Shown piece after piece: positions 235 to 22,626 of a stretch of 64,000 nt of DNA. The DNA comes from Proteobacteria bacterium UBA4457 (lineage in GTDB: Bacteria > Pseudomonadota > Gammaproteobacteria > Ga0077536). Numbering within the stretch: position 1 is the stretch's first letter; every line of letters begins with the position of its first letter. Position numbers and translations under genes: made by a program. The stretch spans positions 15,759-79,758 of the forward strand of contig DGOV01000074.1 of assembly GCA_002390205.1 (NCBI GenBank), given 5' to 3'. The notes beneath the pieces were generated by a model. It searched no databases. It saw only the letters and a list, made by a program, of their open reading frames with translations, and had not been told where the DNA came from.

Positions 235-3200
235 ATGACAGGCCAGAGGTGCAGTCAGCCTTTCGATTGCGGTAGTCAATTTAAATGTTTCAGGGGTTTT
301 TGTATTCCTGTGCCTGAATGCCCGGGAGATGACAATGGATGTACCGCGCCTGGTAGCGAGTGCTTAGAGGCCAGTCAGCCAGAGCCCTTACCAGATCCAG
401 ACACTCCTAACTGCGGGTTAGGTGATCCGAACACGGACCCTTATGTAAGGAAAGATTGCGTTTCTGACTGTAGTATTTTTTGTGATGAATGGAGTAAGAT
501 CACTGCAAATCTAACGCCTGACAGTGATCTTAAGGGTTGCAGTGTAGATGACGCTTGTAGTGTTTGTAGGGCTTGTAACGAAACAGAGGAAGCTAATGAA
601 GACGCCGTCCAGGCTGCATCCGACTACTATGATTTACTTATTGATGAAGTAGAAACGCAGAAGCAATTTAAAATAGACGAGTACGAAGAAGGTTTAGACG
701 AACTGACTGATGTGTACAATCAAACTTATGGCGAACTATATGATACTTACCAGTTATTGCAAGCAGAAAGAAACGAACTGATAAGCCAGCATGACGAATA
801 CTTGGATGAACTAGCCCAACTGATAGCCGAAAGAGACTCATTAACAGATCCAGCTGAAATTGCAGACAAGGATGTTGAAATTGCAGATAAGCAAGCTCAA
901 ATTACAGCCATAGAAGATGAAATAGACGTCAAAAACGATCAAATAAGCGAGAACACGGAGGCCAGAACAGACCTCACTCAGGAGTACTTGGACAACAAAG
1001 AGGAGAGAAAAGATCAACATGAAGAACAAATTAAAATTACAGATGACTACCTCTATCAACTTAGCAAAGAAAAGGCGGATAAGCTGACGTTTTTGAGTAG
1101 AACTAGAGGCATTTGTGGTGACATAAAGCTTCCGAACAGGGCTTGCTATTGCCCGGCTTATATAGACAAAGACAATGGTAGAGTCGTTGATGATTCAGAT
1201 GGCCGTGAATGTTATCTCTGTAACGTTGACAGCGGACACTGGGAATATGAGCCAGAGCTTTGCAGTGTTACCTGCGATCAATGTGTTATTTGCGACAATG
1301 GAGATCAGGCGTGTGCTAGTGTTACCAAAAATCCGAGCGAACCAGGCGACCCGTGTGAATTAGCTAGAAAAAAAGCTGTGACAAAATGCTCGGAGGTGCA
1401 GACTGTAATAGATTGTGCTTATCCGCGGCAAATTTGCGAAGTAAAGGGTCCTCTTTCTAGTGCTTCTTTATCTTGGGAAGAAAAGGACTGGCGAGATTTT
1501 CAAGTGCTACGTATTCTTCAGACAGGCGGAGATTCAGCAGTCGAAGCTAATGGAGTAACAGCTAAGCTTCGTTTAATAGCTGAATCCGTTTCGGATAACA
1601 CTCAGTTTCTAGTTAAAGTTAACAGAGAGGGAACCAGAGTAAATGGAACCGACAGGACAGAATTCGCAACAGTCGACGGGTTGATTACAATAAACACTGA
1701 AGACGTATTAAGTATTGACGGCAAACCAAAAGTCGAGCTAACCGACAATTCAGATATCAAAAGAGTTGGTAGTACGGTTGAGATTAATGTCGATGATGTG
1801 ACTACCCAAGTTCCTTTTCCTAGTTATGAGTACACTTGGTACGCCGATAATAAACAGCTTTATTTGGACGGAGATGGGGAGATTGCTTTGTCAAATATCG
1901 GAGAAGATGGCGAGCCTCTTGGATATGTACACATCGTTACTCTAAGTTCTGTACTTGAGCTTGAAGAAATCTTGGTGGGTATGAATTTGCAAGGAGCGAT
2001 AAGATTGGTAGATCCTTCTCAAGCAGAAGAAGAAAGACCCACTAACGAGGATTGGGTTAAGTCCGATCCTTTTGGTCCAATCATTTACGGCAATCGCGAA
2101 GAGATTGATGCAGAAATTTTCATAAGTGCGGATAGCTCTTATAGTACCTACAATGCTATTGTCGTAGACATTAGTTCACTAAATGAGTACAGACCAGAAA
2201 TTGAACCTATAGCAATCAGCTGGGTTGATGCAACTACAGGTGAAAATGTTGGATCAGGTGATTACTTGTACCTTGCAAATTGGGCTCTCCAAAAGCAGTA
2301 CTACCCAATAGCAACTTTCATAAATTTAAATGGAGAACAACAAACTATTACTGGGCCTGTGTCACCTGTTATAGGCCTTACTTCTCCTCCAAGCTTGGAT
2401 GATTTAAGTGAGGATCCCCAGGTTTCTTCATTAGAGCTTTCGAGCTTAAGTCCGAAACAATATGATACTTTAGAAATTTATGGTAATTACAACACTCCAA
2501 ACGGCAAAAGCGCAGGGCCTTTTTACAGTTGGAAAAGTAACGGCGATTTTATCTTTAATCAAGTGTCATCAAGTCTAGACATAACGCAAGAAATGGTAGA
2601 TACCTACTTGTCAGTTGAAGTGACTTATTTCGATAACTACGGAGTCCCAATCACTCTGTATCCAGACGGTACAGAACTAGTGATAAACGTCCAAGATGAT
2701 CCCACAGGCTGGGTCTGGATCCTTGGAGAACCTCAGGAAGGGAGTAAGCTAACTGCTATTGATAATATAGAAGATAAGGACGGAATTCGCGACCAGAAGT
2801 ACATTTGGTTGCTAGATGGTATAGCAATTGATGAGTCGCAATATGATTTTCTTTTTGAAGGCAGTAAAAACGAAACACTGTTAATTGGCCCTATCCTTAA
2901 CAGTGTTGACAGAAAAATCTCAGTAGCAACAACTTGGACTGACTATCACAAAAACGAGAACGGAGAAGTTAACGAGCATCAAATATTTTCGGACGAAACA
3001 TTCCCTGTAAAAAAAGGGCCTGTAGAGGGCAATTTAACCCTTATCGTTGAAAGCAAGGAGTACGTTATTCCTGATCAGTTTTTCGAGCTTGACCTGTCGG
3101 TAGCGTCCATAACAGAAGATGAAGAGCCTTTACAGATTACTTCAATCCTGTGGGAGATTGAAATTGAAAGGCTTAGAGGTGACGGGACCGGATCAAGCGA

Positions 3201-4811: not shown

Positions 4812-7688
4812 GTGGCACTTTTTTCTGATAACATCACAATTAAGTACGGGTCCGATATGTCGGAGCTGGAGTTCCTAGGCTTATTAGGAAGTCCCCTAAA
4901 TTCGCTATTCAGAGGAGAGCTAGCTTTACGCGACGATACTGACGGCATCTTTTTGTATGGAATTAATACTGATGGAGATATAGCTCGAATTGTTCCTGAG
5001 TTGTCGGACTTACCTAGTATTGATATATCTAATCCTCAGCTTGGTAACGCAATAGTATATAATTCGGATAATGGCGCCACTGACCGCCCCCCTGAATACC
5101 CAGGGAGGCCTTTAAATAAATGGATTAATGTACCAGCACCAAAACCTAATCTTTACGCTAATTCTTTAACAGAGCTAGGAGATGTAGACGTATATAACGC
5201 GTATGAAGGCCATACTCTTGTTTGGGACTCTTCAGCATCCGAGTGGCGGGAAGGGATTAGTGTTGAGATAGCAACGCTAGGAGATTTTCGCGATACCTCT
5301 ATTGATTTTGTCCCTATCCAAGGTCAGACTCTTTTATGGAATGCAACGCTTGGAAAATGGGAAAACGGATTCTTCCCAGATAATCTGAATTCGTTGTCTG
5401 ATGTTGATGTAAGTACATCTCTTCCTTTAGACGGCGACGTCTTGCTTTACGATGGACTTCAAGGTTTGTGGGTACCCGGAGTAGTTTCCGGAGGAAATGC
5501 TAACGTTTTAATCCTCGACGATACTGAGGCATTGCCCGTAGCTGAACTGACCACTCTCGGAGTAAGTCAGCCAGAAGGTGAATTTTACTGGATAGAAGAA
5601 GACAATACTAATAACTGGGCAAAAGCTATAACCGCAGGTGAGGTTTCTTTTGACGACTTCAAAGATGTAGACCTATCGTCTATTCAAGATGGACAAACTC
5701 TTCGATGGACCTTTATCGATGGTCAATGGAAATTCATTCCATCAGATTATCTGCCAGGAGCTTTTGTTGCATCTTTCAGGGATCTGCATCCATCAGATTT
5801 TAGTGAGTTTGCCCTTGGAACATGCGGTATTGAACGCGGACGATATTTTGCTACTACTAACACTACTGGCCTAGGAATGTATGGCACTTCAGCTGTCGAC
5901 GGAGGTATTCATGTCTCTTATGACCTCAGGGATGAAGACAGGACTGTAGATAGTTTCTTTTATGGTTTGTTAAAGTTTCCGTCAGACCTCGAAGATGATG
6001 AAATCACAGGCCTCCGAGGCATTCGCCCTCTCACTGCAAACAGTTCCATTCCTTTTGCTTTAGCGGGAGAGACAGGCTGGAAAGTTGAATTTTGGATAAA
6101 CGTTTCTGATGTCAATCAATCTTCTGAAATACTAGATTATGGTACGATTAAGGTCGAGCTAGAAAACCAAAACATAAAAACAACTTTCTTGTCTGGAGGA
6201 GTGACTTACACTAATTCATGGATTTTCCCTGATGGTTTAGAAGCAGGCTTGTCTTATTTTGTAGAATTTGGTGTTAGGCCTATTAGCGATTATCCCTCGT
6301 GGTACGACGGACCGACTATTAACTGCAAAAAAGTTTTCATCAATGGTATTGAGTGCTATAATGAAAATGGCGAACTAGGTAGTGAAACTGCAATAAGTTC
6401 GGTTGACACTCCACTGGATACACCAGATACAGCAGCTCAAGCATTGCCCGTTATTGGTCGAACCTTTGCCGGCTATCTTGCCAACTTGGCAATGCAGAAT
6501 AACAGCTTAGCTGTCTCCGATTTTTCTTTTACAAATAAGCTAGCAAACTGGGGCACTAGACCTATTGGGATGGTCCCCGGTCAGATGGTAATAATGGAGG
6601 GCACTGAGGAGAGCGACCCTAATCGTGACAAATGTTTATGTACAAAAGGATACAATCCTGAAAAATGGGCAACAGACGAAGAGTATTATTCATTTACTAG
6701 ATTTGGCGATAGTCTAAGGCTTTTGGACCTAGCGGACGTAGATGAAGAAGCTTTTTCCCAGGAAAGCGGATATTTATATTACGATGCAGCAACCCAAAAG
6801 ATTACAAAAGCGTCAGAGAGTCCAACAGACGCAAAGAACTATCGTCTTAGAAACGCAGAAGACGTTAGTTATCGGGATGACAGCAACAATTACATACAAA
6901 ACAACGCGGTTCTGGCTTGGAGTACGGAGAGAAACTTATTCCGACCAGTCCCAACCAACTTAAGTTTTAGAATCAATGATGCTGAAGATGTAAATACGGA
7001 ATCAGGCCTCACCGAAGGATCTACGCTGCACTGGAATCAATCGGCTGAAGAATGGCAAGTAGCGCCCAATCTTAACGCTGTTGCGGGTGATTTAAACTCT
7101 CTGACTGATGTCGAGGCCCTCTTATCGTTTGAGAATTATACCCTTTTATATAGCGAAGCAAATGGAAAGTGGGTGACAGGCCCGGCCCCCGCCCAAGGAG
7201 TCGAAAAGCTAAGAGACATGGTCGATGTCGACGCTGATGACATAGAAGACGGGCAAATACTTGCATATAATTTTTTAACAAACAAGTGGTCTTCTGCTCC
7301 TAAACCCTACCCTAAAGAGTTAAACGACATTGTTAATGTAGACACAGTTTCTCGTCCTCCTCGCGATGGGCAGGCGCTTACCTGGGATGGAGAACGGTGG
7401 TTCCCCGGAGACTTTGCAAAAGGTGGATCGTCTAGTGTCGAGGGGCTTTATGACGTACAGGTCAAGGAAGCTAGGGAGGGGCAAGTTTTAACCTGGGACG
7501 GTACTTACTGGGCAAACAAAGAAGCGCACTCTGGTCGAGGGGATGGTGGCGACTTCGATACGGGCCAGATAAGAGTTAGCTTTACTTCTGGAGTGTGGGG
7601 AGGTGGCGACTTTGACTTAGACTCATCAGATCGACCCATGGAAATGCTTGGATTCGGAATCTTTAATGGTGGCGGCGACTTCGACTAG
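4812..7688 (+). CDS. Fibre protein (958 aa) with ~11 LxDV...GQxLxW...W shaft repeats, one LamG-like module and a C-terminal GGDFD repeat tail
   Basis: GTG start (alternative ATG at 4857). Repeats include 'LSDVDVSTSLPLDGDVLLYDGLQGLWVPG' and 'LNDIVNVDTVSRPPRDGQALTWDGERWFPG'. LamG-like motifs are 'GWKVEFWINV...KKVFINGIEC...PVIGRTFAGYLANL'. The protein ends 'GDGGDFD...GGGDFD...GGGDFD'. Confidence 0.7.
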   Translation: MALFSDNITIKYGSDMSELEFLGLLGSPLNSLFRGELALRDDTDGIFLYGINTDGDIARIVPELSDLPSIDISNPQLGNAIVYNSDNGATDRPPEYPGRPLNKWINVPAPKPNLYANSLTELGDVDVYNAYEGHTLVWDSSASEWREGISVEIATLGDFRDTSIDFVPIQGQTLLWNATLGKWENGFFPDNLNSLSDVDVSTSLPLDGDVLLYDGLQGLWVPGVVSGGNANVLILDDTEALPVAELTTLGVSQPEGEFYWIEEDNTNNWAKAITAGEVSFDDFKDVDLSSIQDGQTLRWTFIDGQWKFIPSDYLPGAFVASFRDLHPSDFSEFALGTCGIERGRYFATTNTTGLGMYGTSAVDGGIHVSYDLRDEDRTVDSFFYGLLKFPSDLEDDEITGLRGIRPLTANSSIPFALAGETGWKVEFWINVSDVNQSSEILDYGTIKVELENQNIKTTFLSGGVTYTNSWIFPDGLEAGLSYFVEFGVRPISDYPSWYDGPTINCKKVFINGIECYNENGELGSETAISSVDTPLDTPDTAAQALPVIGRTFAGYLANLAMQNNSLAVSDFSFTNKLANWGTRPIGMVPGQMVIMEGTEESDPNRDKCLCTKGYNPEKWATDEEYYSFTRFGDSLRLLDLADVDEEAFSQESGYLYYDAATQKITKASESPTDAKNYRLRNAEDVSYRDDSNNYIQNNAVLAWSTERNLFRPVPTNLSFRINDAEDVNTESGLTEGSTLHWNQSAEEWQVAPNLNAVAGDLNSLTDVEALLSFENYTLLYSEANGKWVTGPAPAQGVEKLRDMVDVDADDIEDGQILAYNFLTNKWSSAPKPYPKELNDIVNVDTVSRPPRDGQALTWDGERWFPGDFAKGGSSSVEGLYDVQVKEAREGQVLTWDGTYWANKEAHSGRGDGGDFDTGQIRVSFTSGVWGGGDFDLDSSDRPMEMLGFGIFNGGGDFD

Positions 7689-13956: not shown

Positions 13957-16410
13957 GTGCCTACGCCTACAAACAGAGTTCCTGTAAGAGTAGCGCGTGG
14001 TTACTTCTCTACTCTAAGTGCTTCCATCTCGGACTTGTATGAGGGGGAGATTGTATACGCTTTAGATCAGCAAGCTCTCTATGCTGTAGAAGCTCAGCAG
14101 TTAATCCCTGTAGCCGGCACCAGTATCACTAGCGTAAATGGTGCTACAGGTAGTGTCCTTCTTGGCATAGAAGAATTAGAGGATACCACTATAAATTCAT
14201 TGCTTGACGGGGATACGCTCGTTTATTCTAACGGAGAATGGATTAATTCGCCTGCGACGGCTGGAGGCACTGTTCTCAGTATTGATTTAAATGGCAGTGG
14301 AGGTATTGAGACTTCAGGAGGGCCGGTCACCTCAAGTGGGGTAATCGAAGTATCCTTGAGCAGCACTGGCGTTACCGCAGGCGAGTATACTTTTCCTACT
14401 TTAACTGTTGACGAGAAAGGACGCATTACGGCTATCCTCTCTAACGCTGCTCCAGATCAAAGTCTGAATGATCTTAGTGATGTAAACTCTCCTTTGCCAG
14501 GTATAGGCGATGGGTTGATTTGGGATGGAGTTAACTGGGTCAATACTCCAGATGTTGGAGGTGGAGCTGAATCACTAGATGAATTAAGCGACGTAGATGT
14601 CACTACTCAACTTCCCACGGAAGGTCAGGTTCTTCTCTGGGATAACACGCAAGCGACCTGGAAACCAGGAACTGTCGAAATTCCCCCCTCGGCTTCTATT
14701 CCTCTCAATGAATTAGTAGACGTTGAGATCCCTAATCCAACTGATAAGGATTTAATTGGCTACAATTCTGACACCGGATTGTGGTCAAATGGGTCCTTGC
14801 AATCCATTCTCTTAGCAGACCCTTCTGAGCTTGAAAACGGAGACGGGCTAATTTGGGACGAATGGAATAGCTCTTGGTACTCCGGTGTGCCTGGAAGCGC
14901 AGGGAAAATTGAATATCAAACGTATACTACCACCCAAGAGCAGTCTCCACTTATTGGTGGTAGCTCCTTACTGATAGACGAACCTGCTTGGGAAGATCTA
15001 GGCTTTACTTTGTGTGAAGAATTTGACAATAGCACGCGTTGGGTTGAGGGAGTTCAACAGTTCGTTTTAGACCTTTCGTCAGTTGGGAGCGCCGATACTT
15101 TTGCGTTTCATGAGGTGGTGCCCTATGGAGGCCAGGTTGCAAATTGGAGACCTCTTTCTGCTGATGTTTTCATTACTATCAAAAGAGAAACTTTTGAAAT
15201 TTTAGAGGAAAATAGAACAGTTAACACTACTGATCCTACTCCTACTGGAGATCCCTTTAGTTTCCCCGACGACGCCGACCCAAATATTGCATTTGAATGC
15301 AGCATCTTTCCTCAGGATGCAAAGGATTTGGATATGCTTGTCTATAGAGCAGGCGTAATTCCTTCCTATACAGACGATGTTGGCGAACGATGGACAATCT
15401 TCCGGAGAGAATTAATACAAAAAAATTATTTCTTTAATAACTGGGCAACTGAACTTTGGATCTCTAGTAAAGGCGCAGTTATTGTTAAACAAGGAAATCC
15501 TTCTTGGGAATATTCATGGGGAGCCAATACTGGTGGTCATGGCACTCTTCATAATTGGTACTTTGATCCAGTGCTTGGACCAAGCAATTACGGCGATGGG
15601 ACCTGGGCGGACCTGCCAGTAAGTGGCAGCTACGTTGCCTTTGCTGGGCATCGTCTACTTAACCCAGAAAAAGAAGAGATATCCCTTGAGGATTTGAATG
15701 ATGTAGATACCTTTGGAGTGCAGGTCAATCAATCATTGCATTGGTCTGGGACAGAATGGACCCCTAGTTTTATTAGTATCGATGAACTGTCTGATGTTGA
15801 CACCACTACAAGCCCACCAGCGACAGGGCAAATGCTTCAATGGGACGGTAACAACTGGGTTCCCATAAATATTCCTATCTCTGGCGCGACTAGCCTTGAC
15901 GAGCTTTCGGATGTAAGAACAACTGAGCCAACTCCTCAGGATACTAATGTTTTAGCCTATAACGATACAGAAAACCGATGGTTGCCAGCAAAACCTAGGG
16001 CTACCCCTGGAGCTCCTTTAAGCCTTTCTTCCCCTGGATTGCCGGGAGAGATGCGTTTTAACGATAATTATTTTTACATTTGTATTGGCTTAAACCACTG
16101 GAAGCAGGTTGGTCTTGTTGACCTTACAATTGATCCAAGCATTCAAGAAGTTGCCGATGGTGGTAACTGGGCTGACGGCTCAGGCGGAAGTATTGACACC
16201 ACTTTGGATGGAGGGGACTGGGGAGAAGGAACAACCAATGATGCACAAGGCGCTATTGTTGATGGCGGAATATTTGCTTCGACTATTGATGGCGGCAACT
16301 TTACAGATGGAACAAGTGGTGGGTATAATGTTTCATCTGACGGAGGTAACTTTACGACCGGAGCTCCTGGGGTTGACAGGACTAGTGATGGGGGCGTATT
16401 TACGCCATAA
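13957..16410 (+). CDS. Tail fibre paralogue 1 (817 aa) with the shared N-terminal anchor domain
   Basis: GTG start giving 'MPTPTNRVPVRVARGYFSTL...GEIVYALDQQALY', which aligns with the N-termini of the genes at 16488, 18576 and 24904. Fibre motif 'TFPTLTVDEKGRITAI'. About 8 LxDV...W repeats. C-terminal run of DGG(N/D)(W/F) motifs. Confidence 0.8.
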   Translation: MPTPTNRVPVRVARGYFSTLSASISDLYEGEIVYALDQQALYAVEAQQLIPVAGTSITSVNGATGSVLLGIEELEDTTINSLLDGDTLVYSNGEWINSPATAGGTVLSIDLNGSGGIETSGGPVTSSGVIEVSLSSTGVTAGEYTFPTLTVDEKGRITAILSNAAPDQSLNDLSDVNSPLPGIGDGLIWDGVNWVNTPDVGGGAESLDELSDVDVTTQLPTEGQVLLWDNTQATWKPGTVEIPPSASIPLNELVDVEIPNPTDKDLIGYNSDTGLWSNGSLQSILLADPSELENGDGLIWDEWNSSWYSGVPGSAGKIEYQTYTTTQEQSPLIGGSSLLIDEPAWEDLGFTLCEEFDNSTRWVEGVQQFVLDLSSVGSADTFAFHEVVPYGGQVANWRPLSADVFITIKRETFEILEENRTVNTTDPTPTGDPFSFPDDADPNIAFECSIFPQDAKDLDMLVYRAGVIPSYTDDVGERWTIFRRELIQKNYFFNNWATELWISSKGAVIVKQGNPSWEYSWGANTGGHGTLHNWYFDPVLGPSNYGDGTWADLPVSGSYVAFAGHRLLNPEKEEISLEDLNDVDTFGVQVNQSLHWSGTEWTPSFISIDELSDVDTTTSPPATGQMLQWDGNNWVPINIPISGATSLDELSDVRTTEPTPQDTNVLAYNDTENRWLPAKPRATPGAPLSLSSPGLPGEMRFNDNYFYICIGLNHWKQVGLVDLTIDPSIQEVADGGNWADGSGGSIDTTLDGGDWGEGTTNDAQGAIVDGGIFASTIDGGNFTDGTSGGYNVSSDGGNFTTGAPGVDRTSDGGVFTP

Positions 16411-16487
16411 AGTTTAAGCTTAAAGTCTATATTATTACCAGTTAAGTCTCATGGGTATACTAGCTGGAGTTTCAGGAAAACAGTCTC

Positions 16488-18500
16488 ATGCCAGTTCCAA
16501 GTCCCAGAAGCAAGTTGCTGCCAGCCCGTGGTAATTACTCGGACTTGGAGCAAAACGTCGGCGATCTTCTAGATGGCGAGATTTGCTATGCTATTGACCA
16601 AGACCAGTACTATCAGAAAGAAGGCGCAGGGCTTGTTGCTGTAGGCGCGACCAAGGCGCAAGGAGCTTTGGCTGACTCGGCTTTACAAGATGCCCCTTCT
16701 AATGGCTATCAATACGCTCGCCAAGACGGCTCTTGGTCAATTGTAACTGGAGGAGGAAGTGGCGGAGGAAGTTCTGCTTATCCGGAAACAACCTTCACTA
16801 TTGATGCCGATTCCACCCCTAACTATTTATTTTCAGGTGCTGGTTTTACGACTGCTACGGCGAATCCCGACTTGGTTTTGATTCGTGGACAAAAGTATTC
16901 TTTCGATAATACGAGTGGTGCTCATCCTTTCCAAATCCAAACATCTGACGGTAGTGCTTATGACGAAGGAGTTATCGACAACGATACCATCGGTCTGGTG
17001 CAGTTTACTGTCCCATTCGATGCTCCAGCCGAGTTAAGGTATCAGTGTACAGTTCATCCATCCTCGATGGTCGGTGCAATTGCCGTCTTAGATTCTGACT
17101 TGTCTTCTTTAGTTGATGTAGACCTTTCTGTCGCTCCTGCTAATGGCGAAGGACTGATTTACGATTCTACTTCAGGAAAATGGAAGCCGAAAGTTCCTGA
17201 TCCGATCGCGGAGGAGACTTTCATTGAAGCTCAGTACATTGCAATCGCTCAGGACTTTGAGGATTCCGGCTCTCATTCAGGTGAGAAGAATGCTGATCTT
17301 TGGAATGGATCGGGAACCGAGCAAGACGGAGGTGAGATGCCGGTATCAGGTCCTGCCACTCAACCACCAGGCATGCACGGTACTAAATATATAGATTATA
17401 CAGAATTTACGAACTACAGTTTCCCGGGTACCAATGATGAAGGTATGCAGGGGCCCTGGGTAGGCATTGGCAACCAAGCCGTGTACATCGAGTTTTGGTT
17501 TCGGCATGACCCCATCACGTCTTCCACACCGGTTGGTGATCAATTCGTATTTGGACAAGGTTCAGCTTCTCAAGCCGGTGACATCAACAATGGCCATGGA
17601 GGGCTTGTTATTAAGCACATCATAGACGTGGATCTTTCTACCACGACGGCACTTGACCCTACATTTAATCCTGACACAACGTATAGCGGGTTTGAGCCTG
17701 AATTTGGCTATATCTACACTAACACAAGTGCTCTTATCCTCCAAGACGGATTAGATAGTGATGGCTATTTCCTTGTTGGAACAAAGGAAATGAATATTGC
17801 GGATGGTGTCTGGCATCATGTTGTCTTCATGCAAGAACCCACCGCGGACCCTCAGCCAGGGGGTGCGGCAAGTGGAGTATATTCCTGCTTTATTGACGGA
17901 AAACTTCGAGACAGGTGGGATGCTAATCAAAATCCTGGCACCACCCCTGTTGATACCAACGCTGGGGATTGGGACACTTATTATTTTGGCTGCCTGAAGG
18001 ATGGAACAGGCCACATGAGGGCCGCTATTGATAACTTTGTCGTTTACGGCACAACAGAAAAGTTTCCCTATCCTGCAGGAGTCGATTCTGTAGAGGTTTA
18101 CAAGGGGCCAGTAAATGTAGATCGTACATTCAAGATTCAGACAAAAGGTTCTCCTTCATCGTCCTTGAGTGATTTCTCTTCATTACAACCAAAAATAGGC
18201 GAAGCCCCTGTATTTGATCAGTTTGGCAGCTACACACCTACTCCCGTACTTTCCATTCACGCTGTGTCTAATACAGCAAATGCCGGCGAAGGAACTAGCG
18301 GTACGCCATTCCCTGCAGATCGCGAAGATCTCATTTATTCGGATACAGAAGACGGTCGATACAGGTACCCGCTAGCTGTAGGCACCTGCTTGATTGATGC
18401 CGCAAACAACACCTTATTTATCTGGTCAGGTCCTTACGACGAAGCGGGATACAGCGCCACTACTGGAGGATGGAAAAAGATTGCTCTATTGGATATTTAA
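16488..18500 (+). CDS. Tail fibre paralogue 2 (670 aa): anchor domain + cupredoxin-like module + LamG-like module
   Basis: N-terminus 'MPVPSPRSKLLPARGNYSDL...GEICYAIDQDQYY'. aa 101-201 contain 'GAHPFQI...YQCTVHPSSMVGAIAV' (His...Cys-x2-His-x3-Met). LamG-like motifs are 'VYIEFWFRHD...WHHVVFMQ...CFIDGKLR...IDNFVVYG'. Confidence 0.8.
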   Translation: MPVPSPRSKLLPARGNYSDLEQNVGDLLDGEICYAIDQDQYYQKEGAGLVAVGATKAQGALADSALQDAPSNGYQYARQDGSWSIVTGGGSGGGSSAYPETTFTIDADSTPNYLFSGAGFTTATANPDLVLIRGQKYSFDNTSGAHPFQIQTSDGSAYDEGVIDNDTIGLVQFTVPFDAPAELRYQCTVHPSSMVGAIAVLDSDLSSLVDVDLSVAPANGEGLIYDSTSGKWKPKVPDPIAEETFIEAQYIAIAQDFEDSGSHSGEKNADLWNGSGTEQDGGEMPVSGPATQPPGMHGTKYIDYTEFTNYSFPGTNDEGMQGPWVGIGNQAVYIEFWFRHDPITSSTPVGDQFVFGQGSASQAGDINNGHGGLVIKHIIDVDLSTTTALDPTFNPDTTYSGFEPEFGYIYTNTSALILQDGLDSDGYFLVGTKEMNIADGVWHHVVFMQEPTADPQPGGAASGVYSCFIDGKLRDRWDANQNPGTTPVDTNAGDWDTYYFGCLKDGTGHMRAAIDNFVVYGTTEKFPYPAGVDSVEVYKGPVNVDRTFKIQTKGSPSSSLSDFSSLQPKIGEAPVFDQFGSYTPTPVLSIHAVSNTANAGEGTSGTPFPADREDLIYSDTEDGRYRYPLAVGTCLIDAANNTLFIWSGPYDEAGYSATTGGWKKIALLDI

Positions 18501-18511
18501 CTAGAGTTATT

Positions 18512-18527
18512 AGCCCCTACTGGGGCT
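18512..18527 (+). other. GC hairpin AGCCCC-tact-GGGGCT between fibre genes (no T-tract)
   Basis: Perfect 6-bp stem read directly from the sequence. It is followed by TAAAAA rather than a U-run, so termination is uncertain. Confidence 0.3.
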
Positions 18528-18575
18528 TAAAAATTGAGTGGGTATCCTAAGCCAGATTTTGCAAGCGCTAGAAAA

Positions 18576-20252
18576 ATGCCAGCTCCTTCGAATCGGATTC
18601 CAGTTAGACCGGCTCGCGGAAGTCGCACAGTTCTCACTGACTCTTTAGACAGTATTCAGGAAGGTGAAATTGTATATGCTCGAGACGAGGACTCGCTATT
18701 TATAAAAGAAAACGGACAGTTGGTTAACGTCGCCATAGGAATAGGCCTTGACGCTCAAAAAATCAGCGCAGAAATCACTTGGACTATCGCAACTTCCGCA
18801 GCTGAAGATGCCTATCTTTTTAGTGGTCAGGGCTTTGCTTCTCAGATAGAAAATCCTACTATATATGTAATTAGAGGGCAGAAGTATGCCTTTGATCATC
18901 AGCTCGGCACAGATCCCTTTCAGATTACTACACCAGATGGAACGCCTTATACCGTAGGTCAAACAAATACTCCAGCTGACGGATCAATCCTAAGATGGGA
19001 GGTCTCAATGCAAGCCCCCAAAATCCTGAGATACGTCTCAACAGAGGATAGCAATAAGAGTGGAGAAATTATCGCTATTTCTGATAGCTTTTCTTTAGGT
19101 CTTGAAGATCTCACAAATGTAGGCGACGCCGTTCCCGCGGACGGGCAAGTTATGATCTACAGTTCGTCTCAAGGGTTATGGCAGGCTGCTGATTTGGCCA
19201 CTGGTGGTGTCACTTCCTTGAATGGATTAACGGATGTAGACACTTCATCGGCACTTGAAAGTGATGTATTGAAATTTAACGGAACATATTGGGAAGCTTT
19301 GCCGGAAGCTACGGATGTAGGGACCCCAGGCCGTAAAGTCACAATGAGTATAGACAGCACTCGTCGTGGACAGATGTTGGGGACCGAATTTATTTTGGAC
19401 TCGACAGCCGACTGGGAAGGTATGGGCTTTACGGTTCTTTCTACTGACAACAATGAAACAGACTCTTGGGTCTACTTCCAGTTTGACAGCTTCGATTTAA
19501 ATAAGTGGGTTCCTCTGGGAAGAAATGACTCAATTCCGTATAACAGTGATGGAGAGGATAGTCCAACATTCGCATTTGACGGAAGTGGCCGTCTTGTTTC
19601 TTGGACCAACTCGCCATTCGACGTCAGCCCCATCGCATCTACAAAAAATTTATCAGCTCCCCAGAACTGTGCGTTCTGCTTTACGGCTTTCCTTGAATCA
19701 TCCAATTGCACTGTCTACAGAGCTGGGTACAAAGGAGCCTTGGAGTACGAAGGCGCCACTTGGAGTGTCTTGCGTGTTGAATATGCTAAATTTGACACTT
19801 TACTAGCAGTAGAATATTGGCTGGGCCACGACGGAGACGTCAAAATGTTGTATGGTCGGCCTGATGGAAGTTTTAATCTAAATGTTGATACTAACGGCAA
19901 CGGCTTTACTTTTGGTGGTCGAACTAACGACCCAACACTAGGAAATGCTAATTATAATCTTCCTGGTTTGACTCAAGATGCAGGCTATGGAATTGAGTTA
20001 TGGTATAACGGTAGTGGCTACAACATTGACGACCTATCCAATGTAAGTCATTCTGGTGATTCCCCTCCTACTGATAACTTTCCTTTAGTGTGGTCCAACG
20101 GGTCTTGGGGCCCAGGAAGCATCGTCAGAGAAGGCTCTCAGGCGTCTACTTCCGGGGGAGAAGTAGGCATTTTTGCTGTTGATTCAGTCTATCTTTACGT
20201 CTGTGTCGGAAAGAATGACTGGAAAAGAATAGCATTGGAAACCTTCGTCTGA
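18576..20252 (+). CDS. Tail fibre paralogue 3 (558 aa) with the anchor domain and a ligand-less cupredoxin-like module
   Basis: The ATG at 18576 gives 'MPAPSNRIPVRPARGS...GEIVYARDEDSLF', matching the paralogues. The track's TTG at 18534 is probably too far upstream. The module 'GTDPFQI...LRYVSTEDSNKSGEIIAI' is homologous to the one at 16788-17090 but lacks the His/Cys/His/Met residues. Confidence 0.75.
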   Translation: MPAPSNRIPVRPARGSRTVLTDSLDSIQEGEIVYARDEDSLFIKENGQLVNVAIGIGLDAQKISAEITWTIATSAAEDAYLFSGQGFASQIENPTIYVIRGQKYAFDHQLGTDPFQITTPDGTPYTVGQTNTPADGSILRWEVSMQAPKILRYVSTEDSNKSGEIIAISDSFSLGLEDLTNVGDAVPADGQVMIYSSSQGLWQAADLATGGVTSLNGLTDVDTSSALESDVLKFNGTYWEALPEATDVGTPGRKVTMSIDSTRRGQMLGTEFILDSTADWEGMGFTVLSTDNNETDSWVYFQFDSFDLNKWVPLGRNDSIPYNSDGEDSPTFAFDGSGRLVSWTNSPFDVSPIASTKNLSAPQNCAFCFTAFLESSNCTVYRAGYKGALEYEGATWSVLRVEYAKFDTLLAVEYWLGHDGDVKMLYGRPDGSFNLNVDTNGNGFTFGGRTNDPTLGNANYNLPGLTQDAGYGIELWYNGSGYNIDDLSNVSHSGDSPPTDNFPLVWSNGSWGPGSIVREGSQASTSGGEVGIFAVDSVYLYVCVGKNDWKRIALETFV

Positions 20253-20266
20253 TTCAAGCAAAAAAA

Positions 20267-20653
20267 ATGGCCAACTCTTCTGAAGAATCATATGCGGAGC
20301 AATTCCGCTCATCAGGCAAATTGCCAAAAGGGCCAGTTTCACCTTGGCCTCGTGGTCGCGAAATTCGAACTTTAAACTCTTACGTTAACAAGGCCGATGT
20401 GAGAAACGAGAACGAAATCAAGCCAACTCTTAAGGAAATGGCTGCAGGCATGCTGAGAACAGGAGGGCAGGCTCTTCATCATGGAAAATGTTCTACAGAA
20501 GTCAGGACCGAGAGGATGGAAACGTGTATGAGTTGCGAACATTTTCTTCCTGCCGAACAAAGATGCAGTCTATGTGGTTGCTATATGAAGGCTAAGACCT
20601 GGGTCGGCGGCGACCCTAAAAGATTGTGCCCAGCTAAAAAGTGGCTTAGGTAA
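20267..20653 (+). CDS. Small Cys4 (zinc-ribbon-like) protein
   Basis: C-terminal 'CMSCEHF...RCSLCGCYMKAKTW...LCPAKKW'. Lies between the fibre genes and the scaffold gene. Confidence 0.55.
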   Translation: MANSSEESYAEQFRSSGKLPKGPVSPWPRGREIRTLNSYVNKADVRNENEIKPTLKEMAAGMLRTGGQALHHGKCSTEVRTERMETCMSCEHFLPAEQRCSLCGCYMKAKTWVGGDPKRLCPAKKWLR

Positions 20654-20681
20654 CATATCGACATAACATTCGTCCGACGAG

Positions 20682-21434
20682 ATGTCGGTCTTTTATATGC
20701 CAGAAGAGAATCTTTCAGCTGTAGAGAATACGGCCTCTGATGTCTCGCCAGCTGAGCCCGCTCCACAGAGAGATGATATGATGCCTCGTGCAGAGGCCGA
20801 GAATCTCCTCAAAGCGCTTAAAGCAGAGAGAGAAGCGCGTAAACAGTATGAGCGTGATCTAAAGGAGTCAAGAACTCAATTGGAGAAGTTCGCCGAGATC
20901 AACCCGGATGAATACCTTCAACTGCAAGAAGAAGCAGCGGAAGCAGCGAGACTCCAGGCTCAATGGGGCGAAGTGCGCGACGCAATGGAGTCAAAATACT
21001 CTACTCAAGCACAAGATGCTCTTCAGAGAGCTGAGGCTGCAGACAACCTGTTAGCCACATACAAGAAAAAGTACGCTCTTGAAAAGGTCTTCAATAGTGC
21101 TGGTGGTCGCATCGATTCTGTTGATGGTGTCTCTTTCTTTGATTTACTTTCAGAGCAAGTGGGGAATTCGTTCAGACAGGAGAGCAATGGCACTCTAACA
21201 GTTGTCGATTCGTCTGGTGATCCAGTGATGGACAAGGAGACTGGTTTGCGAATTACCCCTGAAGATCATATGGCTAGCTTCAAGCGCCATCCTGTATTTG
21301 GAACATTTTTCCAGGGAGTCAAAGGAGCAGGTGCTGGAATTGGCTATGGCGGCACTGATGCTAATGGAGCGACAATTGAAGATCTCTCTTCTTTAAGCAG
21401 TGAGGAAATGTTCCGTCGTGCTTTTGGCTCCTAA
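20682..21434 (+). CDS. Putative scaffolding protein
   Basis: 250 aa, acidic and helical/coiled-coil ('EAENLLKALKAEREARKQYERDLKESRTQLEKF'). Directly upstream of the major capsid gene. Confidence 0.6.
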   Translation: MSVFYMPEENLSAVENTASDVSPAEPAPQRDDMMPRAEAENLLKALKAEREARKQYERDLKESRTQLEKFAEINPDEYLQLQEEAAEAARLQAQWGEVRDAMESKYSTQAQDALQRAEAADNLLATYKKKYALEKVFNSAGGRIDSVDGVSFFDLLSEQVGNSFRQESNGTLTVVDSSGDPVMDKETGLRITPEDHMASFKRHPVFGTFFQGVKGAGAGIGYGGTDANGATIEDLSSLSSEEMFRRAFGS

Positions 21435-21501
21435 AGAATCAAAATAGCTGCTCCTTACTAGGAAAAACAAGCTAACATATAAAACCAAAATCAAATCGTT
21501 A

Positions 21502-21513
21502 GGTAGAATATAG
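21502..21513 (+). promoter_or_regulatory. Promoter-like box GGTAGAATATAG ~120 nt upstream of the capsid gene
   Basis: A variant of the GGTAATATAG box. It contains the -10-like TAGAAT and lies in the 196-nt scaffold-capsid spacer. Confidence 0.35.
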
Positions 21514-21630
21514 TTAGCAGCCCTGTAGGGAAACTCTGAGACGGAGTGGACTGTAAGGGTGCGACTGCTGATTTTGTTGTGACAACAAACGACGCTCTAA
21601 CACCCAATCTTTGTTCACTCTTTAATTATC

Positions 21631-22527
21631 ATGGCATTTACGCTATTAGAAGCACAGAAACACGCCAAAACTCCTCAGGAATTGGCTGTAGTAACAGAAC
21701 TGGCCGCCGGTCAGCTTATGTCCGTTCTTCCTTTCCGCAATATTGAAGGCAACGGCCTTTTCTGGAAGAGAGAAGAAAGCCTGCCTGACGTAGGCTTCCG
21801 CAATTACAATGGCTCTTTGGCCGAAAGCTATGCTGAGGTCTCTCAGCAATCTGAGAGCTTGAAGCTTTTTGGTGGCGACATCAAAGTAGACCGTGCCATT
21901 GTGGACCTTGAGGGCGCCGAGGCTAAAGCTTATCAAGTTCAATCTCGTGTCCGCGCTATGCGGATGGCTTGGGAGTCTCTCTTCATTAATGGCGATTCGA
22001 ATCTCGCCCCTTCCGAATTTGACGGACTGGCGAAGCGCATCACCTCTGGCTCCTCTCAGTATTTTGAAAATGCTGGCAGCGCCGCTGCTCTTAGCCTTTC
22101 CAAGCTTGACGAGCTGATTGATAACGTTGACGCACAAGGTGGTCAGAAGTATCTCATCATGTCAAAGTCAACTCGTCGTCATCTGAGTGCTCATGCTCGC
22201 GCCAATGGCCAGATTGAGATTACTCGCAACGAGTTTGGTTATCAGCAGATGGCCTATTCTGGCGTTCCCGTTCTTGAATTGGACCGCGATAACAAGAACG
22301 TTGCGATTCTTGATAGCAATCCTGCCGATCAAGACGTGTATTGCGTTTCTTTCGGAGCAGATCACCTTACTGGAATCCAGAATGGTGGTGTAGGCGTACG
22401 TGAGCTAGGAGAAAGCCACGATCAACCACAATTGATCACTAGAGTTGAATGGTACTGCGGACTTGCCCTCATCAATGGACGCGCAGCCGCTCGCTTGACA
22501 AACGTTGACGCAACCGCATCCGTCTGA
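21631..22527 (+). CDS. Major capsid protein (HK97-fold type)
   Basis: 298 aa. Follows the scaffold gene and is followed by a strong terminator. Capsid-family-like segments include 'LPFRNIEGNGLFWKREESLPDVGFRNYN', 'SLFINGDS...EFDGLAKRI' and 'TRVEWYCGLALINGRAAARL'. Confidence 0.85.
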   Translation: MAFTLLEAQKHAKTPQELAVVTELAAGQLMSVLPFRNIEGNGLFWKREESLPDVGFRNYNGSLAESYAEVSQQSESLKLFGGDIKVDRAIVDLEGAEAKAYQVQSRVRAMRMAWESLFINGDSNLAPSEFDGLAKRITSGSSQYFENAGSAAALSLSKLDELIDNVDAQGGQKYLIMSKSTRRHLSAHARANGQIEITRNEFGYQQMAYSGVPVLELDRDNKNVAILDSNPADQDVYCVSFGADHLTGIQNGGVGVRELGESHDQPQLITRVEWYCGLALINGRAAARLTNVDATASV

Positions 22528-22547
22528 TCAAGTCTATTCCGGACTCA

Positions 22548-22568
22548 GGGGGCTTTGCCCCCTTTTTT
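22548..22568 (+). terminator. Rho-independent terminator after the capsid gene
   Basis: GGGGGC-ttt-GCCCCC stem followed by TTTTTT. Confidence 0.85.
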
Positions 22569-22626
22569 AATGCAATCGGGTATTTCAAAGGAAGACTAAA
22601 TAGTATAAACGTCGCAGGAGGACGCA

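What the first reader, a model, noticed from the sequence alone, without database searches (positions are those of the whole stretch)
16788..17090. Cupredoxin-like module with a complete type-1 copper ligand set inside a tail-fibre protein
aa 101-201 of the 670-aa fibre form a ~100-aa module, 'TFTIDA...NTSGAHPFQI...AELRYQCTVHPSSMVGAIAVLD'. The residues run His146, then 41 aa, then Cys187-x2-His190-x3-Met194, followed by G-x-I-x-V. This matches the blue-copper signature of small cupredoxins: amicyanin CTPHPFMRGKVVV, plastocyanin CSPHQGAGMVGKV, pseudoazurin CTPHYAMGM. The paralogous module in the next fibre gene (nt 18771-19082, 'GTDPFQI...LRYVSTEDSNKSGEIIAI') keeps the scaffold residues but has lost all four ligands. 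Ligand retention in this copy therefore looks selected rather than accidental. Cyanomyophages are known to carry free-standing plastocyanin (petE). I am not aware of a metal-competent cupredoxin fused to a virion receptor-binding protein.
Basis: partly seen in the sequence, partly recalled or inferred. Interest (0 to 1): 0.7.

Follow-up and report, generated by a model that had tools for sequence, protein, structure and literature searches.

The report
Cupredoxin module in cyanophage tail fibre
A tail-fibre gene of a marine Synechococcus siphovirus contains a ~100-residue domain that folds like a blue-copper protein and keeps the copper-binding residues; the same unstudied domain sits in tail and baseplate proteins of hundreds of marine cyanophages, which suggests that these virions carry a bound metal, probably copper.

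Summary
ORF 16488-18500 (670 aa) has His146, Cys187, His190 and Met194 in a module at aa 101-201. The next fibre gene carries a 42%-identical copy with Asp/Ser/Asp/Lys at those positions.

The module is a real cupredoxin-superfamily domain. AlphaFold2 gives pLDDT 94.6. All top 50 Foldseek PDB hits and all 15 profile hits to PDB sequences are copper cupredoxins. hhalign against classic cupredoxins gives E 1.2e-5.

It is not peculiar to this gene. There are 3129 representative clusters in metagenomes. Among 50,697 phage records, 337 match, and all are marine Synechococcus or Prochlorococcus phages or uncultured marine viruses (myo-, podo- and siphoviruses).

The four residues are kept in 187 of 227 copies and are lost together in at least 10 independent lineages. 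The Cys is the only Cys in 183 of 187 intact copies. This argues for a selected metal site.

Caveats:
- Copper binding is untested.
- I could not measure the geometry.
- The first His lies two residues upstream of the canonical position.
- All curated family scores are below threshold.
- Virion proteins fold in the cytoplasm.

The most likely role is a metal-stabilised spacer or adhesion domain. A redox or light sensor remains an open possibility. No paper in the searched library describes it.

The parts
16488..18500 (+). 670-aa tail-fibre gene that carries the module
   Evidence: ORF. PHROG 677 (tail) E 4e-28 and PHROG 25379 (tail). A 95%-identical metagenomic homologue P0001 (668 aa).
16488..16772 (+). 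N-terminal anchor (aa 1-~60) plus short fibre repeats and a Gly-rich linker (aa ~60-95)
   Evidence: aa 1-67 are 80.6% identical to the N-terminus of S-CRES1/2 gp108. The same N-terminus starts the fibre genes at 13957 and 18534 and at least 12 metagenomic fibres.
16788..17090 (+). Cupredoxin-like module, aa 101-201 (HMM envelope aa 96-205)
   Evidence: AF2 pLDDT 94.6, nine beta strands. Foldseek PDB and BFVD hits. Profile hits to PDB cupredoxins. hhalign.
16923..16925 (+). Codon of His146, the proposed N-terminal metal ligand, in the motif G-A-H-P-F-Q-I
   Evidence: Conserved in 93% of 227 copies. Never lost unless Cys187 and His190 are also lost. Lies two residues before strand 54-57 of the model.
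17046..17048 (+). Codon of Cys187, the proposed thiolate ligand
   Evidence: 89% conserved. The only Cys in 183 of 187 intact copies. Last residue of model strand 88-93.
17055..17057 (+). Codon of His190, the proposed second His ligand in the ligand loop
   Evidence: 86% conserved. Aligned to the C-terminal His ligand of plastocyanin, amicyanin and nitrite reductase.
17067..17069 (+). Codon of Met194, the proposed axial ligand, followed by x-G-x-I-x-V
   Evidence: 90% conserved. Replaced by Phe or Leu in some copies. The His-to-Met spacer is 3 residues here but 2 in 170 of 179 copies.
17103..18497 (+). C-terminal 465 aa: one fibre repeat, then an all-beta region with a probable ConA-like lectin domain (putative receptor-binding part)
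   Evidence: Weak Pfam Laminin_G_3 hit, E 0.008. AF2 reaches only pLDDT 59.8. Foldseek hits are all ConA-like lectin, botulinum-toxin Hc or trans-sialidase lectin domains, with low TM-scores. Eight metagenomic homologues.
18534..20252 (+). Adjacent paralogous fibre gene (572 aa)
   Evidence: ORF. PHROG 677 E 1.6e-20.
18768..19085 (+). Ligand-less copy of the module (aa 79-184; D, S, D, K at the ligand columns)
   Evidence: HMM E 6e-27. Ligand pattern DSDK. 42% identical to the intact copy and contains no Cys.

Best explanation
The module is a true but divergent member of the cupredoxin (blue-copper) superfamily. It has become a mobile building block of marine cyanophage tail fibres and baseplates.

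In this S-CBS2/S-CRES-like cyanosiphovirus it sits between the N-terminal anchor that docks the fibre to the tail and a distal lectin-like domain. It keeps a mononuclear His-Cys-His-Met site of type-1 copper composition, with an amicyanin-length ligand loop.

I propose that the site binds a metal ion in the virion, most probably copper. I propose that its main role is to lock and stabilise this Ig-like beta-sandwich as a rigid spacer or weak adhesion domain in seawater. I do not think it shuttles electrons as plastocyanin does.

Shown here: the fold, the homology, the family-wide conservation and coupled loss of the four residues, and the restriction to marine cyanophage tail proteins among sequenced phages.

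Inferred: that a metal is bound, that it is copper, when it is loaded (in the cytoplasm or after lysis), and that the role is structural.
For: Fold:
- AF2 pLDDT 94.6 and pTM 0.87, with the ligand regions in blocks of pLDDT 95-97.
- The 50 best Foldseek PDB hits are all cupredoxins: Hyphomicrobium nitrite reductase E 1.2e-5, purple cupredoxin 5fc9 TM 0.58/0.66, plastocyanin 2plt TM 0.55/0.62.

Sequence:
- The family profile hits only copper cupredoxins in the PDB (15 of 15, best E 0.002).
- hhalign against plastocyanin, amicyanin and pseudoazurin gives probability 81% and E 1.2e-5, with C, H, M and G-x-I-x-V aligned.
- The family HMM hits bona fide PF00127 domains fused to PQQ dehydrogenases at E 1e-7 and 5e-6.
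- All sub-threshold NCBIfam hits are blue-copper families.
- 32 of 62 members give sub-threshold Copper-bind hits.

Selection on the site:
- H 93%, C 89%, H 86% and M 90% in 227 copies. The full set is present in 187.
- All 12 copies lacking His146 also lack Cys187 and His190 (Fisher p 4e-16 and 1e-13).
- Losses occurred in at least 10 lineages. One copy with F, A, Q is 85% identical to its intact sister copy in the same protein.
- The Cys has no possible disulfide partner in 183 of 187 copies.
- Met-to-Phe/Leu variants mirror the known natural variation of type-1 sites.

Topology: Cys ends a strand, His and Met lie in the following loop, and Met precedes the last strand, as in cupredoxins.

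Context: virion tail and baseplate proteins in isolates of all three morphotypes keep HCHM (syn9, S-SSM4, P-SSM2, Sf-CH8, P-SCSP2).
Against: - No metal measurement exists. I could not obtain model coordinates, so convergence of the four side chains is untested.
- His146 aligns two residues upstream of the canonical ligand His. The family has H-P-F where cupredoxins have P-H-N, so the site geometry may differ from a classical type-1 site.
- Every curated model is below its cut-off for this copy: PF00127 14.2-14.4 bits against 21.2; halocyanin 16.3 against 93.8.
- TM-scores to solved cupredoxins are only 0.5-0.6.
- Neither this protein nor the small stand-alone relatives has a signal peptide. 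They therefore fold in the host cytoplasm. From general knowledge of bacterial metal homeostasis, cupredoxins are not normally loaded with copper there, and zinc could compete.
- Ligand-less copies persist as intact domains (the neighbouring gene). The fold and at least part of the function therefore do not need the metal.
Confidence: 0.55

Rival explanations
1. A relic scaffold. The domain descends from a cupredoxin but in the virion it binds no copper (empty, or occupied by zinc or another ion). The four residues would be kept for folding or packing reasons. The module would work purely as an Ig-like spacer or adhesion bead, like other beta-sandwich decorations of phage proteins.
For: Ligand-less copies are maintained, including the paralogue in the next gene. 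Tandem arrays of 2-10 copies resemble beads-on-a-string fibre domains. The proteins have no signal peptide and fold in the cytoplasm. The first His is shifted from its canonical position.
Against: A lone, nearly invariant Cys with no disulfide partner is hard to explain by packing. So is the all-or-none, repeated co-loss of four residues far apart in sequence, including a sister copy that is 85% identical outside the ligands. The Cys/His/His/Met combination is specific to copper sites in this fold.
Confidence: 0.2
2. A redox or light switch for adsorption. A type-1 copper centre on fibres and baseplates changes state (Cu(II)/Cu(I), His-ligand flip, or photoreduction through its ~600 nm band). 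This would gate fibre conformation or receptor binding and contribute to the light-dependent adsorption known for some cyanophages.
For: - Among 50,697 phage records the module occurs only in marine picocyanobacterial phages and three uncultured marine viruses (337 records).
- Light-dependent adsorption is reported only for cyanophages. It is independent of host photosynthesis and has been ascribed to light-sensitive receptors and/or tail fibres of unknown nature (PMC6628666).
- P-HM2 (no adsorption in the dark) and P-SSM2 (adsorption enhanced by light) carry the module. P-SSP7 (which the paper reports replicating in the dark) has none at E<=0.1.
Against: This rests on three phages and is confounded by morphotype. 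Other podoviruses (P-SCSP2, P-GSP1) carry the module. Nearly all T4-like cyanophages have it, but only some show light-dependent adsorption (my recollection of Jia et al. 2010, cited). No redox partner is identified. Copper binding itself is unproven.
Confidence: 0.1
3. Copper bait, or a copper pool. The virion displays protein-bound copper that is recognised by a host copper-uptake or cupredoxin-binding surface component (a copper analogue of the 'Ferrojan Horse' idea). Alternatively it delivers or sequesters copper.
For: The idea of metal-loaded tail fibres has been proposed for iron (papers listed; PMC11705849 listed). The module is exposed on fibres and baseplates of phages whose hosts need copper for plastocyanin and cytochrome oxidase (general knowledge).
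Against: No host receptor is known. The metal in a type-1 site is buried apart from one His edge. The same module occurs in Bacteroidota surface or fibre-like proteins with no link to cyanobacterial copper uptake.
Confidence: 0.05
4. An intracellular electron carrier related to the cyanophage petE auxiliary metabolic gene. It would be fused to, or misannotated as part of, a structural gene.
For: Some family members are labelled 'plastocyanin' (JGI: P0156, P0170) or 'PetE' (S-SCSM2R_202).
Against: The similarity to plastocyanin is only remote (hhalign probability 81%; TIGR02656 not reached). There is no transit or signal peptide for the thylakoid lumen. The module is embedded in fibre, baseplate and spike proteins, often in tandem. 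The labelled small proteins lie among structural genes.
Confidence: 0.03
5. A chance motif in an unrelated beta-rich segment.
For: Single-sequence searches are weak: Pfam E 0.05-0.06; phmmer against the PDB finds nothing relevant.
Against: The motif expectation is 0.01-0.06 per window. There are 3129 homologous clusters with the same four residues conserved. A confident cupredoxin fold is predicted.
Confidence: 0.01

Closest known systems
Small blue-copper proteins: plastocyanin, amicyanin, pseudoazurin, halocyanin (Pfam PF00127 Copper-bind; NCBIfam TIGR02656, TIGR02657, TIGR03102)
   Same: Greek-key beta-sandwich of ~100 residues. C-terminal Y-x-C-T-x-H-x(2-3)-M-x-G-x-I-x-V ligand loop, whose usual length (C-x2-H-x2-M) equals that of amicyanin. 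An upstream His after a G-rich turn. A single Cys.
   Different: Only remote similarity, with all curated scores below cut-off. The upstream His is in H-P-F, two residues before the canonical P-H-N His. No signal peptide. It is not a free soluble carrier but a domain inside large virion proteins, often in tandem.
Tethered cupredoxin domains of redox enzymes (extra cupredoxin domain of Hyphomicrobium denitrificans nitrite reductase, PDB 2dv6/6tfo; cupredoxin fused to PQQ dehydrogenases, loci L006/L010)
   Same: These are the best structural hits (2dv6, E 1.2e-5). They show that cupredoxins work as fused modules. The PQQ-dehydrogenase domains are hit directly by the family HMM.
   Different: Those domains pass PF00127 (E 1e-13) and sit next to a catalytic redox partner. 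The fibre has no recognisable redox partner domain.
Pfam PF25489, At5g54830-like domain (family named after a plant cytochrome b561/DOMON protein)
   Same: 20 of 62 family members give hits. One member (P0066) passes the gathering score, 34.8 against 27 bits. Hits cover the C-terminal two thirds of the profile.
   Different: The window's copy gives no hit at E<=1. I could not determine what PF25489 is thought to do or whether it is placed in the cupredoxin clan (one search found nothing useful).
PHROG 677, 'baseplate wedge tail fiber protein connector' (gp9/gp10-like protein of T4-like cyanophages)
   Same: The module corresponds to the last ~110 positions (302-411 of 412) of this PHROG, E 4e-28. 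In syn9 and S-SSM4 it is the C-terminal domain of that baseplate protein, with HCHM intact.
   Different: Only the module is shared. The rest of the 670-aa siphovirus fibre is unrelated to the myovirus baseplate protein. The PHROG and GenBank names say nothing about a cupredoxin or a metal.
Ig-like / FN3 / BIG2 accessory beta-sandwich domains on phage structural proteins
   Same: It works like them in placement: a ~100-aa beta-sandwich inserted in fibres, spikes and baseplate proteins, shuffled between unrelated phages, sometimes in tandem.
   Different: Those domains have no conserved metal-ligand set. This comparison rests on general knowledge, not on a test made here.
Metal sites in phage fibres and the 'Ferrojan Horse' hypothesis (iron bound by His pairs in T4-type long tail fibre tips)
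   Same: A conserved metal-ligand set in a host-recognition organelle of marine phages, with possible relevance to trace-metal cycling.
   Different: Different metal, ligand chemistry and fold. There the ions lie on the trimer axis of a fibre. Here the site lies within a monomeric globular domain.

Membership tests
Cupredoxin superfamily (fold level) | Greek-key beta-sandwich of 7-9 strands, structurally similar to solved cupredoxins | tested here: met
   AF2 pLDDT 94.6 with 9 strands. All 50 top Foldseek PDB hits are cupredoxins, probability 1.00, TM 0.45-0.66.
Cupredoxin superfamily (homology level) | Statistically supported sequence or profile relationship to known cupredoxins | tested here: met
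   hhalign E 1.2e-5, probability 81%. Profile against PDB: 15 of 15 hits are cupredoxins, best E 0.002. The family HMM hits PF00127-positive domains at E 1e-7.
Type-1 (blue) copper site | His, Cys, His and an axial Met (or Gln/Leu/Phe), with Cys-x(n)-His-x(n)-Met in the loop between the last two strands | tested here: met
   C187-x2-H190-x3-M194 lies between model strands 88-93 and 101-107. Conserved across the family.
Type-1 (blue) copper site | Upstream His at the canonical position (P-H-N at the start of strand 4) | tested here: not met
   Both the HMM and hhalign place the family His two residues upstream of the canonical His (H-P-F against P-H-N). Phe148 occupies the canonical column. An alternative one-gap alignment (H-x-hydrophobic-x-hydrophobic) is possible, but no tool supported it.
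Type-1 (blue) copper site | The four ligand side chains converge on one point (trigonal N2S plus an axial S) | not testable with these tools
   Structure prediction returns no coordinates. The only indirect support is the coupled evolutionary loss of the four residues.
Type-1 (blue) copper site | Binds copper: ~600 nm absorption, small parallel hyperfine splitting in EPR | not testable with these tools
   Requires experiment.
Pfam PF00127 Copper-bind / PF13473 Cupredoxin_1 | Score at or above the gathering threshold (21.2 / 27 bits) | tested here: not met
   14.2-14.4 bits, E 0.05-0.06, covering only the last 30 residues. The best relative (second P-SSM2 copy) reaches 21.0 bits.
Pfam PF25489 At5g54830-like domain | Score at or above the gathering threshold (27 bits) | tested here: not met
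   No hit for the window's copy. One relative passes (P0066, 34.8 bits) and several score 14-19 bits.
NCBIfam plastocyanin / amicyanin / halocyanin / rusticyanin | Score at or above the curated cut-off | tested here: not met
   Halocyanin 16.3 bits against 93.8. Nothing else for the window's copy.
Cyanophage petE (plastocyanin auxiliary metabolic gene) | Free-standing ~100-aa plastocyanin orthologue with a lumen-targeting signal | tested here: not met
   The domain is internal to a 670-aa fibre. TIGR02656 is not hit. Stand-alone relatives have no signal peptide.
PHROG 677 (cyanomyovirus gp9/gp10-like baseplate connector) | Match to the whole profile | tested here: not met
   Only profile positions 302-411 of 412 match, that is the module alone.
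Phage tail fibre / receptor-binding protein | Tail-associated homologues, position in the tail-fibre gene block, distal binding domain | tested here: inconclusive
   Supporting evidence: tail PHROGs; N-terminus shared with S-CRES1 gp108 and with neighbouring fibre genes; a lectin-like C-terminus supported only by a low-confidence model and a weak Pfam hit. There are no virion proteomics for this phage.

The most novel reading that the evidence does not exclude
Marine cyanophage virions, including the conserved baseplate protein of T4-like cyanomyoviruses, carry functional type-1 copper centres. These would act as redox- or light-responsive switches that gate adsorption, giving a molecular basis for the unexplained light-dependent adsorption of cyanophages. 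They would also make viral particles a distinct copper-binding pool in seawater.
Probability: 0.1. Interest if true: 0.9.

Novelty: new variant of a known kind. Interest (0 to 1): 0.62.

Why it matters
If the site binds copper, most marine cyanophage particles would be copper metalloprotein assemblies. Cyanophages are among the most abundant viruses in the ocean.

That would matter in three ways:
- A redox-active, coloured cofactor would sit at the host-recognition apparatus.
- It would give a concrete, mutable candidate for the long-unexplained light dependence of cyanophage adsorption.
- It would extend the idea of virions as trace-metal carriers from iron to copper.

There are practical consequences too. 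The family (at least 3129 clusters) has no dedicated Pfam model. It is currently annotated either as a generic 'baseplate wedge tail fiber connector' or wrongly as plastocyanin/PetE, which can inflate counts of photosynthesis auxiliary genes in viromes. The claim is cheap to test: colour, EPR and ICP-MS of one recombinant 110-residue domain.

Tried and rejected
- Word-indexed protein search with the single domain found nothing. The exhaustive HMMER search was needed.
- phmmer of the single domain against PDB sequences gave only irrelevant hits with E around 1.
- The search for related loci with the single domain returned only the window's own phage (L001) and one distant locus. I used a degenerate DNA pattern instead.
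- Megablast of 14000-22600 against phage records found no match.
- I looked for model coordinates in the sandbox so as to measure ligand distances. None are provided.
- The AF2 model of the C-terminal 465 aa reached only pLDDT 59.8. Its lectin-like Foldseek hits are suggestive, not firm. phmmer of that region against the PDB gave nothing.
- Literature searches found no description of this domain: cupredoxin + cyanophage; plastocyanin-like + phage + baseplate; cupredoxin + phage + tail; plastocyanin-like + cyanophage; cyanophage + tail fiber + copper. One search was badly framed and uninformative. S-CRES1 and At5g54830 searches gave nothing useful. The P-SCSP1u cryo-EM paper did not resolve the distal fibre.
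- I rejected a recent origin from phage or host petE, because the similarity is only remote.
- I rejected phage exclusivity. The module also occurs in proteins on cellular-looking contigs of marine Bacteroidota. Two of the nine 'genome' hits are misbinned cyanophage contigs.
Full report
OBSERVATION. ORF 16488..18500 on the + strand encodes 670 aa. Nt 16788-17090 corresponds to aa 101-201. The loose motif H-x(30-50)-C-x2-H-x(2-4)-M occurs once among the 48 long frames of the window. Shuffled frames give 0.06 per window, and 0.01 for the tighter C-x2-H-x(2-4)-M-x-G. A family HMM finds exactly two copies of the module in the window. One is this copy. The other is aa 79-184 of the next fibre gene (18534..20252). 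The two copies are 42% identical. The second has Asp, Ser, Asp and Lys at the four positions and contains no Cys at all.

WHAT THE MODULE IS. A single-sequence Pfam scan gives only a sub-threshold Copper-bind hit over the last 30 residues (14.2-14.4 bits against 21.2). Deeper evidence is consistent:
- An exhaustive HMMER search finds 3129 representative clusters at E<=1e-3 and 1439 at E<=1e-10, many with 2-10 tandem copies.
- A profile of 62 copies (A1) hits 15 PDB sequences. All are copper cupredoxins: nitrite reductases, plastocyanins, pseudoazurins and amicyanins (best E 0.002). Cys, His, Met and the G-x-I-x-V strand are aligned.
- Profile-profile comparison with plastocyanin, amicyanin and pseudoazurin gives probability 81% and E 1.2e-5.
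- AlphaFold2 on A1 gives pLDDT 94.6 and pTM 0.87, with nine strands.
- The 50 best Foldseek hits in the PDB are all cupredoxins, with TM 0.45-0.66. No solved phage structure appears among them.
- The family HMM also hits, at E 1e-7 and 5e-6, C-terminal domains of PQQ dehydrogenases. Those domains pass PF00127 at E 1e-13 and carry the amicyanin loop CTPHPFM.
- All sub-threshold NCBIfam hits are blue-copper families.

The module is therefore a divergent member of the cupredoxin superfamily. It is not a formal member of any curated family. One relative passes Pfam PF25489 (At5g54830-like domain), whose nature I could not establish.

IS THE LIGAND SET SELECTED? In 227 copies taken from the 150 best clusters plus the window:
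- The four columns are His 93%, Cys 89%, His 86% and Met 90%. All four are present in 187 copies.
- Among 214 full-length copies, every one of the 12 that lack His146 also lacks Cys187 and His190. All 17 that lack Cys187 also lack His190. Fisher p ranges from 1e-20 to 6e-8.
- These copies are not independent. However, the degenerate copies fall into at least ten separate groups. One copy with Phe, Ala and Gln is 85% identical to its intact sister copy in the same protein. Another, with Ser and Asp, is 76% identical to an intact copy. The window's own degenerate copy is closer to intact copies than to any other degenerate one.
- The ligand Cys is the only Cys in 183 of 187 intact copies. Copies that lost it have none, so it cannot be a disulfide partner.
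- Met is sometimes replaced by Phe or Leu. From general knowledge, these are the known natural axial variants of type-1 sites.
- Isolates of all three morphotypes keep the full set: syn9 and S-SSM4 gp10-like baseplate protein, P-SSM2 tail spike (two copies), Sf-CH8 tail fibre, and the podovirus P-SCSP2.

The support comes from the family, not from the single paralogue comparison.

HOW IT DIFFERS FROM CLASSICAL BLUE-COPPER PROTEINS.
(i) The upstream His lies in G-x-H-P-F-x-I. Both hmmsearch and hhalign align the Pro with the Pro of the canonical x-P-H-N motif. This puts the family His two residues upstream and Phe148 in the canonical His column. In the model, His146 lies two residues before strand 54-57. 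Cys187 ends strand 88-93, His190 is in the loop, and Met194 precedes strand 101-107. Whether His146 reaches the site cannot be measured, because no coordinates are returned. The coupled-loss pattern is the only evidence that it belongs to the site.
(ii) The usual loop is C-x2-H-x2-M, as in amicyanin (170 of 179 copies). The window's copy has a rarer three-residue spacer.
(iii) Neither the fibre nor the small stand-alone relatives (111-184 aa) has a signal peptide. They fold in the host cytoplasm. From general knowledge of bacterial metal homeostasis, cupredoxins are not normally metallated there. Copper would have to come from cytoplasmic chaperone pools, or be scavenged after lysis.

DISTRIBUTION AND CONTEXT.
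- The window comes from an S-CBS2/S-CRES1-3-like cyanosiphovirus. Its major capsid protein is 81-83% identical to theirs, and there is no nucleotide-level match.
- The fibre has a modular layout. An N-terminal anchor comes first. It is 80% identical to the N-terminus of S-CRES1 gp108 and is shared with the fibre genes at 13957 and 18534. Short repeats and a Gly-rich linker follow, then the cupredoxin module, and then 465 residues of beta structure. That last region has a weak Laminin_G_3 hit and lectin-like fold matches from a low-confidence model.
- tblastn of a family consensus against 50,697 phage records finds 337 records. All are Synechococcus or Prochlorococcus phages, records named 'Cyanophage', or three uncultured marine viruses. 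The hits are mostly the gp9/gp10-like 'baseplate wedge tail fiber connector'.
- BFVD structural matches with TM 0.85-0.91 are the same proteins. None is named as a copper protein.
- A degenerate DNA pattern for YYQCTxHxxMxG finds only nine loci in 185,579 species genomes. Two are misbinned T4-like cyanophage contigs. Two are the PQQ-dehydrogenase fusions. The rest are large surface or fibre-like proteins of marine Bacteroidota and a Planctomycetota MAG (collagen repeats plus Peptidase_S74; Flg_new_2 plus LRR), some with clearly cellular neighbours.
- Small stand-alone versions occur on cyanomyovirus-like contigs. They are sometimes labelled 'plastocyanin' or 'PetE'.

MECHANISM.
Best-supported reading (confidence 0.55): a cupredoxin-derived, metal-binding beta-sandwich serves as a rigid spacer or adhesion module between anchor and distal binding domain. 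The His-Cys-His-Met site holds a metal, most probably copper, that stabilises the domain outside the cell.
- Shown: fold, homology, selection on the four residues, and tail-protein context.
- Inferred: metal occupancy, identity of the metal, time of loading, and a structural rather than redox role.

Rivals:
- A metal-free or zinc-occupied relic scaffold (0.2).
- A redox or light switch for adsorption (0.1). Cyanophage adsorption can depend on light independently of host photosynthesis, and tail fibres have been suggested as the sensor (PMC6628666). P-HM2 and P-SSM2 carry the module and P-SSP7 does not. That is three phages, confounded by morphotype, and other podoviruses do carry it.
- A copper bait or copper pool analogous to the 'Ferrojan Horse' idea (0.05).
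- A petE-like electron carrier (0.03).
- Chance (0.01).

NOVELTY. The cupredoxin fold and the type-1 ligand set are textbook. The new points are:
- their systematic presence in virion tail and baseplate proteins of marine cyanophages;
- the shifted first His;
- the size of the family and the lack of a dedicated Pfam model for it.

Five literature searches of about 8 million full texts found no description. The library omits most subscription-journal papers. Automated annotations ('plastocyanin', 'PetE') show that pipelines have occasionally noticed the resemblance. I rate it a new variant of a known kind, with interest 0.62. It is surprising to a phage or metalloprotein specialist and directly testable, but copper binding is unproven and a purely structural role is the most likely outcome.

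Noticed in passing
window 21631-22527 (and the whole window): The window is an S-CBS2/S-CRES1-3-like cyanosiphovirus. Its major capsid protein is 81-83% identical at the protein level to those Synechococcus phages and 53% to Prochlorococcus phage PSS2. The fibre region 14000-22600 has no megablast match to any phage record.
   Followed up: partly
window 13957-14200, 16488-16770, 18576-18800: Three consecutive fibre genes begin with the same ~60-90-aa N-terminus (MPxPxxRxPxxxARG...GEIxYAxDQ). It is 80% identical to the N-terminus of S-CRES1/2 gp108 and is present in at least 12 metagenomic fibres. It looks like a shared tail-docking anchor with exchangeable distal parts.
   Followed up: partly
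window 4812-7688, 13957-16410, 17103-17190, 19100-19310: Repeats of ~25-30 aa of the type DVD..P..GQ.L.WDG..W.P recur in several fibre proteins (PHROG 9627 and the middle part of PHROG 677).
   Followed up: no
window 20267-20653: A 128-aa ORF between the fibre genes and the scaffold gene has a Cys-rich C-terminal half (CxxC...CxxCxC...C), reminiscent of a zinc-ribbon protein.
   Followed up: no
window 235-4752: A 1505-aa ORF starts with a very Cys-rich N-terminus (MTGQRCSQPFDCGSQFKCFRGFCIPVPECPGDDNGC...).
   Followed up: no
L020 2288-2794 (S-SCSM2R_202, PQ898602.1); proteins P0156, P0170: Members of this tail-module family are annotated 'PetE' in GenBank and 'plastocyanin' by JGI. They lie among structural genes and lack signal peptides. 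They are probably not photosynthetic plastocyanins and could inflate counts of auxiliary metabolic genes.
   Followed up: partly
L005 (NZVD01000020.1, Rhodopirellula MAG NAT69) and L008 (NZIN01000059.1, Rickettsiales MAG MED606): These contigs of GTDB species-representative MAGs encode T4-like baseplate proteins (gp8, PHROG 438 E 1e-229 and 2e-142) next to the module. They are cyanomyovirus contigs binned into bacterial genomes.
   Followed up: partly
L006 6073-7998 and L010 7156-7911 (Alphaproteobacteria MAGs): PQQ-dependent dehydrogenases with a C-terminal bona fide cupredoxin domain (PF00127 E 1e-13) carrying the amicyanin loop CTPHPFM. They appear to be dehydrogenases fused to their own electron acceptor.
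   Followed up: no
L009 3-2951, L013 1319-7999 (Bacteroidetes MAG RYN_284); L012 4010-6463 (Bacteroidetes SAG AG-894-L18): The module, with HCHM intact, also occurs in collagen-repeat plus Peptidase_S74 proteins and in a Flg_new_2/LRR surface protein. These lie on contigs with cellular neighbours (PhoD with a T9SS sorting domain, glycoside hydrolases). The family is therefore not strictly viral.
   Followed up: partly
proteins P0012, P0132 (copies with H, C, H, F): Five copies replace the axial Met by Phe. From general knowledge, this substitution is found in high-potential type-1 sites of fungal laccases.
   Followed up: no
BFVD hits A0A481YXP1, A0A481Z6J5 and others: The model also matches 'beta-sandwich proteins' of Marseillevirus- and Pithovirus-like metagenomic giant viruses (TM 0.63-0.66) and a 'blue type 1 copper protein' of Fadolivirus.
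   Followed up: no
L022 46777-49998 and 2-9679 (P-HM2 PHM2_106 and gp7 PHM2_086); L021 (P-SSP7 genome): P-HM2, which does not adsorb in the dark, carries the module in two structural proteins. P-SSP7, which replicates in the dark, has none at E<=0.1. This is anecdotal.
   Followed up: partly
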